NCBI RefSeq assembly: GCF_009914755.1 | Contig: NC_060935.1 | Strand: one strand, 5' to 3' | DNA length: 64,000 nt | Source: the human T2T-CHM13v2.0 reference genome, Homo sapiens | Part shown: positions 28,637 through 38,518 of the stretch, in pieces | How the letters are laid out: every line of letters starts with the position of its first letter | Numbering within the stretch: the stretch's first letter is position 1 | Program-made: the position numbers and the translations under genes | Notes under the pieces: generated by a model | Database searches by the model: none | What the model was told of the DNA's origin: nothing | Seen by the model: only the letters and a program-made list of their open reading frames with translations

Positions 28637-29690
28637 TACACCATTCACCATTCCTTATACTCCATATTCTATTTCTTTTCTCCATAGTCCATTCTTTAAA
28701 CAGCATTGTCTATTCTCCATTCTCCATCTTTATTTTCCATTCTTTATTCCCCTTTCTCCACACTTTGGCTTTCATACACCATACTTCATTATATGTACAC
28801 TATTCTTCATTGTCTATTCTCCATACTCCACACTCCATTTCCATACATCATTCTCCATACATTGTTCTCCATTTTCTATACTTTATAGTCTATTCTCCAC
28901 ACTCTGTTATCCTTTCTTCATTCTAATTATCCTTTCTCCACATTCCGTTCTCCATCCTCCATACACCATTCTTTATTCTCTATACTCCATTCTCTTTTCT
29001 CAATTCTTCATTCTCCATATAATATTCTTCATTCTCCACACTCTGTTGTCCATCCTTTATACTCAATTCTCCATTCTCATTTCTTTATGCATGACGCTTC
29101 ATTCTTCCTTTTCCATTCTTCATACTCCATTCCTCATACTTCCTACTTTATTCTTCTCCTTTTTTCTTCATACTTCACTCTTCACATCCATAATTGATTC
29201 TTCTTTCTCCATTTTTATTCTCTATACCCTACTCTCCATTCTCCGTTTTTTATATATCATTGTTCAATCTCATTCTTTATGCTCCATTCTCCATACTTCA
29301 TACTTTATACACCATTTCCCGTGTTTCTTTCTCCATTTATTATTCTCCATACACCATTTGTATTCTCTTTTCTTCATACTATATTCTTTGGTATCCTTTC
29401 TCCATTCTCCATTTTCCACACATCATTTTCTATTTTCCATACTCTCTTCTCTAGCTCCTTTCTTCATTCTTCATACATTATACTGCAATCTGTTTTCTCC
29501 ATATTCCATTGTCCATTCTCCATTCTTCATATTCCATTAACCCCTCCTTTTCCTTTATTCTGCATTCTGCATTGACAACACCCATTCTCCATTCTCCATA
29601 CACCATTCTCCATTCTTCTGTCTTCTTTCTCCATACCTCATTTTCCATACACCATTCTTCATACCACATTTTCTCATTCTCAATAATCTC

Positions 29691-29985
29691 TTATTTATTT
29701 ATTTAAGACAGAGTTTCACTCTGTCACCCAGGCTGGAGTGCAATGGCACAATCTCGGCTCACTGCAACCTCCATCTCCCAGGTTCAAGTGATTCTCCTGC
29801 CTCAGCCTCCCAAGTAGCTGGGATTACAGGTGCCTGCCACCACACCTGGCTAATTTTTGAAGTTTTAGTGAGATGGGGTTTCACCATGTTGGCCAGGCTG
29901 GTCTCGAACTCCTGACCTCAGGTGATCCATCCGCCTTGGCCTCCCAAAATGCTGGGATTACAGGTGTGAGCCACCCAGCCAGGGC
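29691..29985 (-). mobile_element. AluSx-like
   Basis: Full dimer with (ATTT)n tail. Confidence 0.93.
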
Positions 29986-32900
29986 TTATTTCTTATTCTT
30001 TATTCTTTGTACCTTATTCTCCATTCTCCATACACCATTCTGTATTCTGTTTTCTCCATATCCAATCTCCATTCTTTTTTCTCCATCCCCCATTATCCAT
30101 ACACTATTCTCTATACCACACTCTCTCATTCTCAGTAATTCATTTGTTATTCCTTATTCCCCATTCTTTGTACCTTATTCTCCATTCTCCATACTTCATT
30201 CTTAATTCTCATTTCTTTATATTCTATACTACATTCTCCGTACACTATTTTCCATACTTCATTCTTATTTCTTCATTATCCATACTTTATACTGCAGTCT
30301 TGTTTCTCCATACTCCATACACAATTCTCCATTCTTCATATTCCATTCTCCATTCCTCTTTCTTCATATTGCATTCTCCATATGCCATGCTTTTTTCTTC
30401 ATACTCTGTTCTCCATATGCCATTCACCATTCTCCATTTTCTATTATCTAAACATTATTCTCCATAATACATACTCCTTATTCCATTGTTCATTCACTTT
30501 TCTCCCTACTCGATACTCTCACACTTTTCTGCATTCTCCATACTCCATTCTCCATATTTCAAACTTTATACACCCTTCTCAATTCTCTTTACTCTAGAGT
30601 CTATTCCCCATATACCATTCCCCATTCTTCATTTTCCACAGTCCATTCTTCATTCTTTTATCTTCACACATCATTCTCTATAAACACGTCTCCATTTTTT
30701 ATTATTTATATTGCATTTTCCATACCCCATACACCCAATCTTTATTCTTCTTTCTCTATACTTAATTCTCCATACATCATTCGTCATTCTTCATACACAA
30801 TTCTCCATACTCTATTCTTCATTCTTCTCTCTCCGTATTCTCTCCTTCATATACTATTCTTTATTCTGCATTTTCCATTCTTCATCCTCTATACTCTATA
30901 CTTCATTCTCCATTCCCCATACTCCATTCTCCACACTTTTTATCTTTTCTCCTACTTCAACCTGTTACACTATTTTGCATTTTTTATTCTACATCCTGCA
31001 TTCTCCAAACATTGTTCTCTGTACTTTATTTTCTCTTCTCATTTCTCTATATTCTATTTCCATACTTCATTCTTTACACACCATTCTCCATTTTTCATTT
31101 CCATAATTTGGTCTACATACTCCATACTTTATTCTTCGTTTTTTATATTCATCCTTCAGACTCCATGTTCTTTTTTCCTCTTACTACACATCATTCTCAT
31201 AAACCATTCTCCATTTTCCATTCTCCTGACTCCATTCTACATACTCCATACTTCATACTTAATTTGTCTCTCTTCATACTTCATTCACTGTTCTCCATAC
31301 TCCTTTCTTCATTCTTTCTTAATATGCCGTTCTCCATATGCCGTTCTTTATTCTCCATTTTTCATCCCCCGTTCTTCTTTGTCCATATTACATTCTCTAT
31401 ATTCCATTTTTCTTTTATTCTTTCTCATCCATACTCCTTTTTCTATGCTTCATCACTATACTCCATTACTTATTTTCTCTCCTCATCGTCCATTTTTTAT
31501 ACTCCATTCTCAATTCTCCGTGCATCATTCTCCATACTCCATACTTCTTTCTCCATAGTCATTCTGTCTACTCCAGTCTTCTTCCCCCTCTCTCCTCTCA
31601 TTATACTCCATCGTTCATACTTTATTGTCCTACTGCTTTCTCCATACTCCATTCTCTATACATAATTCTCATTCTCCATTTTCCATGAGTATGAAGATTC
31701 TCATTCTTCATACTTTATTCTCTGTACACCATTGTCTATTCTCCATTTTCCATTCCCCATACTCCATTCTCCAGCTTCATTCTTTGTTTTATATTCTCTG
31801 TTCTCCTTTCATCATGCTCCATTCTCTATACTCCATTTTTTCTGTATATTCTATTCTCCATACACCTTTGTTCATTCTCTATCAGTCTCCATACTGTTTT
31901 CCATACTCTATACCCATAGTTCAATCCTCATTCTTCTTTCTCCATAATCATCCTCCATATACCATTGTTCATACTCCATTCTTTATATCCCAAACTCTGT
32001 TCTTTTCTTTCTATATTTTATTTCCCATATGCCCTCCCCCATTCTCTACTTTTCATTCTCCTTTCTTTATTCTTCATTCATTATACATTATTCTCTATTC
32101 TTTTTTCTCCATACTTCATTCTTCACCTTTTGTCTCCATACTTCATTATCTATACATCATTTTCTCCTTTTTATTTTTCATTCTCCATAATTTATTCTTT
32201 ATATACCATTCTCCATTCTTCACTCTCCATTTTCTTTTCTCCGTACTCTTTTCTTCATACTCCATTCTCTTTTCTTCATACCCCGTGCTCCATACTCCAT
32301 GCACCATTCTCCATTCTCTATTTCTCATCCAACATTCTTCAGTCTCCATTTCACATTCTCATGCTTTATTCTCCACATTCCACACTCCATCCTCTCTTCT
32401 CAATACTTTTCCCTCTATACATTAATCTCCATTCTGTATTTTCCACTCTTTATACTGCATAAACCACACTCCTTCCTTCTTTCTCCATACTCCAATCTCC
32501 TTACACCATTCTCCACTCTTCATTTTTTGTACCCCATTCTTCATTCTCCAAACCTTATTCTTTATACTTCATTCTCTCTAGTCTTGTCTCCATACTCCAT
32601 TTTCTATACTTCATTCTCCTTTCTTCATACCTTATTCTTTATATACGATTCTACATTCTACACTTTTTCAGCTTCATACTTCATTCTCCCTACTATATAC
32701 TCCATACTTTGTTCTTCATTCTTCACACTTGTTCTCCATACTCCATTTCCTTTCTGGCTCCAACTATACACCATTTTTCCATATGCCATTCCCCTTTCTC
32801 CTTTTTCCACACTTCTTTCTTCATACACCATTCTTCATTCTTCATACTACATATGCTGTTCTTTTCCTTTATAGTCTATTCTTTATATAGCATTGTCTTG

Positions 32901-36984: not shown

Positions 36985-37385
36985 TCGATAGCCATTTTGC
37001 ATGCTCCACTTTCTTTTTTCCCTCCATTATACTTCAACGTCCTTACTGCTTTCTCCATACTCCATTCAATATACATGATTCTCAATTCTCCATTTTCCAT
37101 TTTCTATACTTTATACTTCTTTCTCTGTAGGTCATAGTCTATTCTCCATTTTCATTCCCCATACTCCATTCTCCAAATTTTATTCTCTACATTTTTTTCT
37201 CTTTTCTCCTTTTGCCATGCTGCATTCTCCACACTTCACTCTTTTTTCTCTATATTCCATTCTCCATACACCATTGTCCATTCTCCATTTTTCAATTTCC
37301 ATAATGTTTTCCATACTCTGTACCCATAGTTCAATATTCTTCTTTCTCCACAATCCATTCTCCATACTCCATTTTTCCTTCTCCA

Positions 37386-37693
37386 TTATTTATTTATTTA
37401 TTAATTTAATTGAGACAGGATCTCGCTCTGTCGCCCAGACTAGAGTGCAGTCGTACAATCTCGGCTCACTGCAACCTCCACCTCCTGGGCTCAAGCAATC
37501 TTCCTACCTCAGTCTTCTGTGTAGCTGAGACTACAAGTGTGTGCCACCATGCCCAGCTAATTTTTGTATTTTTTGTAGAGACGAGGTTTTGCCATATTGC
37601 CCACTCTGGTCCCAAACTCTAGGGCTCAAGGGATTCACTCACCTTGGTCTCCCAAAGTGCTGGGAATACAGGCTTCAGCCACCACTCCCGACC
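37386..37693 (-). mobile_element. AluJ
   Basis: J-type features (ctcctgggctcaagcaatc, tttttgtagagacgaggtttt), high divergence, TSD tctccatt. Confidence 0.88.
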
Positions 37694-38518
37694 TCTCCAT
37701 TCTTTATACTTCACACTCCATGCTTTTTTCTCTATACTTTATTCCCCATATACCTTCGTCCATTCTCCATTCTTCATTCCCCTTTTTACATTCTCCATTC
37801 ATTACACACCATTCGCCTTTCTCTCTTCTTCACACTCCGTACTTCATTCTCCACTCTTTTCTCCATACTTCCTTATCTATGCTCCAGTCTCTACTCTCCA
37901 TTCTCTATTCTCCAGTCTTCATTCTCCATTCTCTTTTCACCATACTCCATACTCCATTCTCTACTCCTCATACAACATTCTTCAGTCTCTATTTCAAATT
38001 CTCCACACTCCACACTCTATTCTCCATTCTCTTCTCTCCATCCTTTCCCCTCCACACATCATTCTCTATTGTGGATTTTCCATTCTTCATATTCCACACT
38101 CCTTTCTTCTTTCTCCATACTCCAATTTCTTTATACCCTTCATTTTCATACCCATACTCCATTCTCCAAACCTTATTCTTTATACTCCATTCTCTCTTGT
38201 CTTTTCTCCGCACTCCTTTCTCCTTTCTCCATGCTTCATTCTTTATACACCATTCTCCATTCTCCATTTTTTTCATCTCTATACTCCATTCTTTATACTA
38301 CATGCTCCATGCTTGGTTCTTTGTTCTTCATACTCATTCTGCACCCTCCATTTCCTTTTCTGCTCTCAGATACACCACTTTTCATACACCATTCTCCATT
38401 TTCATAGTCTATTCTCCATACATCATGGCCTATTCTCCATTCTCTTTCTCCATGCTTTATTCTCCATACATCATTCTCCATTCTCCTTTCTTGGTTTTTC
38501 ATTCTTTATATTCCATTC

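What the first reader, a model, noticed from the sequence alone, without database searches (positions are those of the whole stretch)
29340..38220. Hidden multi-kilobase (~4.5-5.6 kb) higher-order duplication inside the array
Seen: distinctive non-consensus words recur in colinear order. gctcctttcttcatt 29454/34448 (offset 4994); cattctgcatt(g/c)acaaca 29563/34563 (5000); ctcattctcagtaat 30125/34681 (4556); tgttttccatactct(a/g)tacccatagttcaat 31895/37305 (5410); caacattcttcagtctc 32330/37973 (5643); cattctccaaaccttattctttatac 32542/38160 (5618), with a further relative near 40716. Offsets step down or up across the Alus at 29.7 and 37.4 kb. Inference: the array grew by kb-scale unequal exchange, HOR-like, before these Alus (including an AluJ) inserted.
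Basis: partly seen in the sequence, partly recalled or inferred. Interest (0 to 1): 0.7.

Follow-up and report, generated by a model that had tools for sequence, protein, structure and literature searches.

The report
Fossil tandem duplication in heptamer satellite
Between the human H19 and IGF2 genes lies a decayed 7-base repeat whose middle holds two and a half head-to-tail copies of a roughly 4-kb block, likely made by unequal recombination more than 55 million years ago and likely a functionless relic.

Summary
The duplication is real and larger than reported. With transposons removed, the array (21272-45985, remnants to 50170) is a decayed TTCTCCA heptamer satellite. It contains copy A (28628-32790, 3.85 kb) followed head-to-tail by copy B (~32800-38383, 4.66 kb), about 82% identical. 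A vs B scores 283; heptamer-block shuffles reach at most 21 (0 of 25). An older ~1.5-kb duplication lies inside the unit.

All four Alus inside A/B have an empty site in the other copy, including a J-type Alu at 37.4 kb, so the duplication likely predates about 55-65 My. Alus explain only part of the offset steps; array indels of up to ~0.8 kb explain the rest.

It is not a maintained higher-order repeat: about 2.5 copies at 77-82% identity, covering half the array. Best reading: a neutral fossil of unequal exchange. I found no description of it in print, but kb-scale repeats in simple satellites are a known kind. Low interest.

The parts
21272..45985 (+). Decayed heptamer satellite, unit TTCTCCA (CATTCTC phase), interrupted by transposons; 20,837 bp TE-free
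   Evidence: 3029 parsed units, 2749 of them 7 bp; autocorrelation peaks at 7, 14, 21; TTCTCCA 400 times on + and 0 times on - in 21272-50200
28628..32790 (+). Copy A of the ~4-kb unit (3854 bp TE-free)
   Evidence: 3320 of 3854 bases lie inside aligned segments
32791..38383 (+). Copy B (4664 bp TE-free), head-to-tail after A; junction between 32779 and 32815
   Evidence: A's end aligns up to 32779~38383; A's start 28628 aligns to 32815 (0 of 200 shuffles); 3206 of 4664 bases aligned
38384..41030 (+).
   Evidence: B 33215-34883 ~ 38869-40187, 1236 columns, 77%; B vs C with X excluded, 0 of 150 shuffles in all four settings; A vs C 0 of 150 with lenient scoring but 14 and 9 of 150 with strict scoring
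35254..38380 (+). Older ~1.5-kb internal duplication within the unit (35254-36292 ~ 37142-38380; in A 30846-31190 ~ 32350-32770); gives five relatives of segment X
   Evidence: 880 columns, 77%; B1-B2 z=5.4 and A2-B1 z=4.0, 0 of 100 each, but A1-A2 not above null, 41 of 100; five-way alignment
29690..29997 (-). S-type Alu in copy A; empty site in B near 34697
33763..34063 (-). S-type Alu in copy B; empty sites in A (~29086) and in C (~39385); target-site duplication CATTCTCATTTTT
36679..36991 (-). S-type Alu in copy B; empty site in A near 31559
37388..37701 (-). J-type Alu in copy B; target-site duplication TCTCCATT(A/C)TTTAT; single unsplit word in A near 31975; sets the minimum age of the duplication
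   Evidence: 22-27% from the seven other Alus, which are 12-21% from each other; J-diagnostic bases recalled, not from a library; empty site
28258..28644 (+). Young 125-bp x 3.1 triplication (97%) abutting A's left edge
43820..44036 (+). Isolated relic of the unit (matches B 36559-36641 at 88%, and A 31391-31607)
   Evidence: score 34.9 with the A/B pair model, 0 of 40 shuffles
46295..50170 (+). Right-hand remnants of the same satellite (46295-46397, 48748-49150, 49500-50170) between DNA-transposon-like inserts
   Evidence: lag-7 identity 0.51-0.54; sequence

Best explanation
The middle of a decayed 7-bp satellite holds two full and one partial head-to-tail copies of a ~4-kb block, likely produced by successive unequal exchanges between out-of-register heptamer tracts before about 55-65 million years ago, and likely left to decay neutrally since. 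Shown: colinear homology, direct orientation, abutting copies, nested smaller duplications and Alu empty sites. Inferred order: (1) heptamer expansion; (2) ~1.5-kb internal duplication; (3) an older ~4.4-kb duplication separating C from the A/B ancestor; (4) the A/B duplication; (5) J-type, then S-type Alu insertions into single copies; (6) unit-sized slippage and 0.1-0.8 kb indels throughout, and a recent 125-bp triplication. Homogenisation likely stopped before step 5, since no Alu was spread to a second copy. No function is implied beyond spacer DNA.
For: A vs B 283 against null max 21.1 (0 of 25 in each of two strict settings); z 64 and 79 for the two halves. Junction gap of about 35 bp between A's end and B's start. 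B-C diagonal and the A-C diagonal at twice the offset. 4 of 4 Alus within A/B have an empty site in the other copy. Aligned mismatch 403 of 2382 columns (16.9%), 67% transitions; simulations put the true p-distance at about 0.19 by identity and about 0.3 by score per column, which fits a pre-simian age (rates recalled). AluJ was largely active 65-55 My ago (PMC4177385, passages). 13 of 27 gaps of 5 bp or more are exact multiples of 7. No Rfam family in 19000-52000; no gene or functional element annotated (hub note); CpG observed/expected 0.49.
Against: Exact k-mer tests do not beat shuffles. The two divergence estimates disagree, so the date is loose. The subfamily call rests on recalled diagnostics, and subfamily age is an imperfect proxy for one element's age (PMC3661076, passages). 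A vs C is significant only with lenient scoring. The multiple-of-7 gap excess is partly forced by aligning periodic DNA. Sequence alone cannot separate crossing-over from replication-based template switching. No other primate genome was available, and neutrality was not tested.
Confidence: 0.8

Rival explanations
1. It is the eroded remnant of a true higher-order repeat: the whole array was once a homogenised run of ~4.4-kb units, and the flanks have decayed past recognition.
For: Three colinear copies with a second diagonal at twice the offset; an isolated relic at 43.8-44.0 kb; one off-diagonal cell 24673~39692 at z=8.
Against: No hit above null between the A/B pair models and the left flank (best 14.0, reached by 17 of 40 shuffles; and 12.4, by 43 of 80). 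The z=8 cell gave no single alignment of score 25 or more. Copies differ in age rather than forming one homogeneous set.
Confidence: 0.1
2. The same tandem copies arose by replication-based events (break-induced replication or template switching on heptamer microhomology) rather than by unequal crossing-over.
For: Heptamer microhomology is everywhere; nested duplications of many sizes (125, 150, 330, 414, 500, 700, 780, 1500, 4400 bp).
Against: No inversions or templated insertions seen (0 minus-strand heptamers). Products are otherwise indistinguishable at this age.
Confidence: 0.07
3. The array and its copies are kept for a role in the IGF2/H19 imprinted domain, as a chromatin spacer or a protein-binding or strand-asymmetric element between the H19 control region and IGF2.
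For: Position 40-69 kb upstream of H19 (hub note); persistence for over 55 My; strong strand asymmetry (24% purines).
Against: Heavy decay, many transposon insertions, CpG depletion and no annotation; no pure pyrimidine run of 25 or more bases in the array. [quoted passage not shown]
Confidence: 0.03
4. Chance similarity among low-complexity heptamer variants.
For: Exact k-mer statistics are within the shuffled range; unrelated array pieces align at 69-74%.
Against: Alignment scores more than ten times the null maximum, colinearity over 3.2 kb, and matched Alu empty sites.
Confidence: 0.005

Closest known systems
Higher-order repeats in simple-sequence satellites (GAATG/HSat3 Yq 3.4-3.6 kb; HsatII 16q11.2 ~5.8 kb; PMC2588610, passages incl. 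Table 1)
   Same: A short CATTC-containing monomer organised into multi-kb direct units of similar size, attributed to unequal exchange.
   Different: Those are described as highly homologous HORs across tens of kb. Here there are about 2.5 copies at 77-82%, with large indels and copy-specific Alus, in gene-rich 11p15.5, and the monomer is 7 bp.
GAATG array at 10p12.33 (20,933 bp, with inversion; Table 1 of PMC2588610)
   Same: Best non-local match in the genome (65-68%); isolated ~21-kb array with the same CATTCTCCATTC word (13.3 per kb there, 1.5 here).
   Different: It has a 17-bp (5+5+7) period, CATTCCATTC at 29.9 per kb against 0.2 here, an inversion, and no transposon-like break seen in the 500-bp profile. 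The match reflects shared motifs; shared descent is not shown.
Diverged (monomeric) layers flanking alpha-satellite HORs (background passage of PMC2588610; transposon dating of such layers recalled)
   Same: Old satellite no longer homogenised and accumulating transposons that date it.
   Different: Unrelated monomer; not centromeric.
Local tandem segmental duplication
   Same: Over 1 kb, direct and adjacent.
   Different: 82% identity is below the usual 90% cut-off (recalled), and it is hidden by the satellite background.

Membership tests
Higher-order repeat (HOR) | Multi-monomer unit repeated head-to-tail | tested here: met
   A, B and partial C abut in direct orientation
Higher-order repeat (HOR) | Unit-to-unit identity clearly above monomer-level background | tested here: met
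   82% against 69-74%
Higher-order repeat (HOR) | Highly homologous, near-constant-length units in many copies | tested here: not met
   About 2.5 copies, 77-82%, lengths 3854 and 4664 bp
Higher-order repeat (HOR) | Insertions propagated to all units by homogenisation | tested here: not met
   4 of 4 Alus in A/B are copy-specific
HSat3 / (CATTC)n satellite | Dominant 5-bp CATTC periodicity | tested here: not met
   Spacings are multiples of 7; CATTCCATTC 0.2 per kb against 29.9 at the chr10 array
HSat3 / (CATTC)n satellite | Pyrimidine-rich strand with CATTC core | tested here: met
   24% purines; CAT(T/A)C at 7-bp multiples
HSat3 / (CATTC)n satellite | Common descent or Repbase/Dfam family assignment | not testable with these tools
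   No repeat library held
AluJ (element at 37388-37701) | J-diagnostic bases and greater distance from AluS copies | tested here: met
   22-27% from all seven others; diagnostic bases recalled
AluJ (element at 37388-37701) | Assignment against consensus library; ortholog presence in other primates | not testable with these tools
   No library, no other primate genome

The most novel reading that the evidence does not exclude
This is a frozen, pre-simian proto-HOR: an undescribed 7-bp relative of the CATTC satellites that had begun building ~4.4-kb higher-order units in euchromatin and stopped before AluJ inserted. It would preserve a layered, transposon-dated record (1.5-kb, then 4.4-kb twice, then 125-bp) of how simple satellites start and stop forming HORs, readable at one orthologous locus across primates.
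Probability: 0.3. Interest if true: 0.45.

Novelty: new member of a known kind. Interest (0 to 1): 0.22.

Why it matters
Modestly. It dates an unannotated ~22-kb satellite in the IGF2/H19 imprinted interval to at least early primates. It also shows that kb-scale duplication history can be recovered at 20% or more divergence inside low-complexity DNA, where exact k-mer dot plots fail. As a single-locus, Alu-dated fossil it could serve as a test case for satellite birth and death across primates. At 82% identity the copies are unlikely to drive present-day rearrangements (inference), and no regulatory role is indicated.

Tried and rejected
The repeat finder was swamped by the heptamer background. 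Exact twice-only k-mer counts (k=14-20) and k-mer chains did not exceed shuffles. Dating by simulation gave two discordant brackets. No kb-scale partner was found for 22.2-28.2 kb: 0 of 23 strict pair tests with the three left segments significant, best 6 of 100, and the lenient scan gave only one alignment of score 25.3. The chr10 array is a different, 17-bp-period satellite, and the chr7 hit is a short local repeat of a few hundred bases. A 22-base array word occurs only three times in the genome, all in this window. Rfam found nothing. Literature: four searches returned 0 papers, as did one on the chr10 array. Searches listed 9, 5 and 11 papers whose titles and abstract starts do not describe this array; I opened two of them for passages only. 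The main text of PMC2588610 has no '11p15', 'H19' or 'IGF2', and its single 'chr11' is an 11q23 VNTR; its supplements could not be read. Lewis 2004 (conserved direct repeat upstream of H19), Paulsen 2005 and a 2022 review of human satellites were not held, so a prior description there is not excluded; from recall, the Lewis element lies much closer to H19.

Full report
Setting. From 21272 to 45985, with remnants to 50170, the window is a pyrimidine-rich tandem array. After cutting ten inserts (eight Alu or Alu-containing intervals, one L1-like, one unidentified), 20,837 bases remain. They parse into 3029 units, 2749 of them 7 bp, commonest TTCTCCA. All units are on one strand (400 against 0). 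The hub note places it 40-69 kb upstream of H19, with no annotation. Rfam finds nothing in 19000-52000.

Observation. The six words are present exactly twice each, at the stated places. A local aligner that down-weights bases predictable from context shows a continuous off-diagonal. 14 of 52 windows score 30 or more, against 0 of 520 in each of four null models. The two main alignments are 30827-32779 ~ 35866-38383 (1753 columns, 83%) and 29072-30020 ~ 33749-34716 (629 columns, 82.5%). Bridging hits at 30195~34730 and 30628~34905 are each reached by 1 of 200 shuffles. Two methods without my weighting agree: blastn and global alignment (82% against 69-74%).

Anatomy. The left edge maps 28628 to 32815 (0 of 200; a second hit on the same diagonal, 1 of 200), and the right edge maps 32779 to 38383. 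So copy A (3854 bp TE-free) is followed directly by copy B (4664 bp), with the junction at about 32780-32815. B has two stretches missing from A (about 33.14-33.75 kb and 35.1-35.87 kb). The diagonal continues into a partial third copy C: B 33215-34883 ~ 38869-40187 (77%), then 36012-36294 ~ 40660-40945. B vs C, with the shared segment X left out, is reached by 0 of 150 shuffles in all four settings. A vs C is reached by 0 of 150 with lenient scoring but by 14 and 9 of 150 with strict scoring; two control pairs stay within null. C shares part of the 33.14-33.75 kb stretch with B, so A likely lost it. An A/B pair model scored higher on C and on a relic at 43.9 kb than A or B alone (34.9 against 29.9; 31.6 against 27.0), as older paralogs should, and found nothing in the left flank. 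The all-against-all matrix confines the kb-scale diagonals to about 28.5-41.5 kb.

Order and age. Four Alus lie in A or B, and each has an empty site in the other copy. The 37.4-kb element is 22-27% from the seven other Alus compared, which are 12-21% from each other, and it shows J-type diagnostic bases (recalled). AluJ was largely active 65-55 My ago (PMC4177385, passages), with the caveat that subfamily age need not equal element age (PMC3661076, passages). A/B mismatch is 403 of 2382 columns. Simulations give a true distance of about 0.19 by identity and about 0.3 by score per column, which fits an early-primate or older event (rates recalled). Because no Alu was copied to a second unit, homogenisation had likely stopped by then. 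The only young event found is a 125-bp triplication at 97%.

Offsets. TE-free offsets of the six words are 4385, 4391, 4255, 4796, 4715 and 4690. Alus account for about 300 bp at each step, and array indels for the rest.

Mechanism. Direct, abutting copies in a sequence full of 7-bp microhomology point to unequal exchange between out-of-register tracts (inferred). Replication-based template switching cannot be excluded. No function is indicated; the array is decayed, CpG-poor and full of transposons. An imprinting role rests on position alone.

Comparison. Multi-kb HORs in simple satellites are known (PMC2588610, passages and Table 1). This works like the first steps of such a HOR but fails membership on homogeneity, copy number and spread of insertions. 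The nearest genomic look-alike is the catalogued 10p12.33 GAATG array, which has a 17-bp period and abundant pentamers, so the chr11 array is not HSat3 by periodicity. Searches turned up no description of the array or the duplication. Three possibly relevant papers and one supplement could not be read.

Verdict. Observation confirmed and extended; interpretation partly supported. An ancient, likely neutral 2.5-copy tandem duplication in a dead satellite: a new member of a known kind, interest 0.22.

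Noticed in passing
window 25196-25913: An S-type Alu is split by a ~400-bp insert (about 25396-25796) that looks like an MLT2-type solo LTR (name recalled): a nested insertion.
   Followed up: partly
window 42910-43636: Antisense L1 3'-end-like insert with a 14-bp target-site duplication CTCCATACTCCATT inside the satellite (family recalled).
   Followed up: partly
window 45985-46295, 46397-48748, 49150-49500: DNA-transposon-like inserts (Tigger/MER46-like, recalled) inside the satellite's right end; the two short ones are 80% alike over 314 columns. 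They suggest the array is older still.
   Followed up: partly
window 21272-22200: The left end of the array is more homogeneous, with local 132-, 317- and 414-bp repeats and its own CCCTCCA variant.
   Followed up: no
window 45250-45440: A ~190-bp non-satellite insert of unknown origin without a clear target-site duplication.
   Followed up: no
G000:C10:18571800-18592600 (L009-L011): A 21-kb CATTC array with 17-bp (5+5+7) period and an internal ~10-kb inversion; matches the 10p12.33 GAATG array in PMC2588610 Table 1.
   Followed up: yes
L012:4600-5300 (G000:C7:~89517600-89518300): The end of an SVA-like element (recalled) with an AGAGGGG tail, followed by a short CTTACTATTCTCCATTTTC-type minisatellite.
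   Followed up: no
window 825-1012, 3244-3491, 5166-5437, 13947-14178: GC-rich minisatellites of 10, ~28, 56 and 47 bp in the CpG-rich flank towards H19.
   Followed up: no
window 24673 ~ 39692: One unexplained off-diagonal cell (z=8 with 16 shuffles) with no single alignment of score 25 or more; possibly chance.
   Followed up: partly
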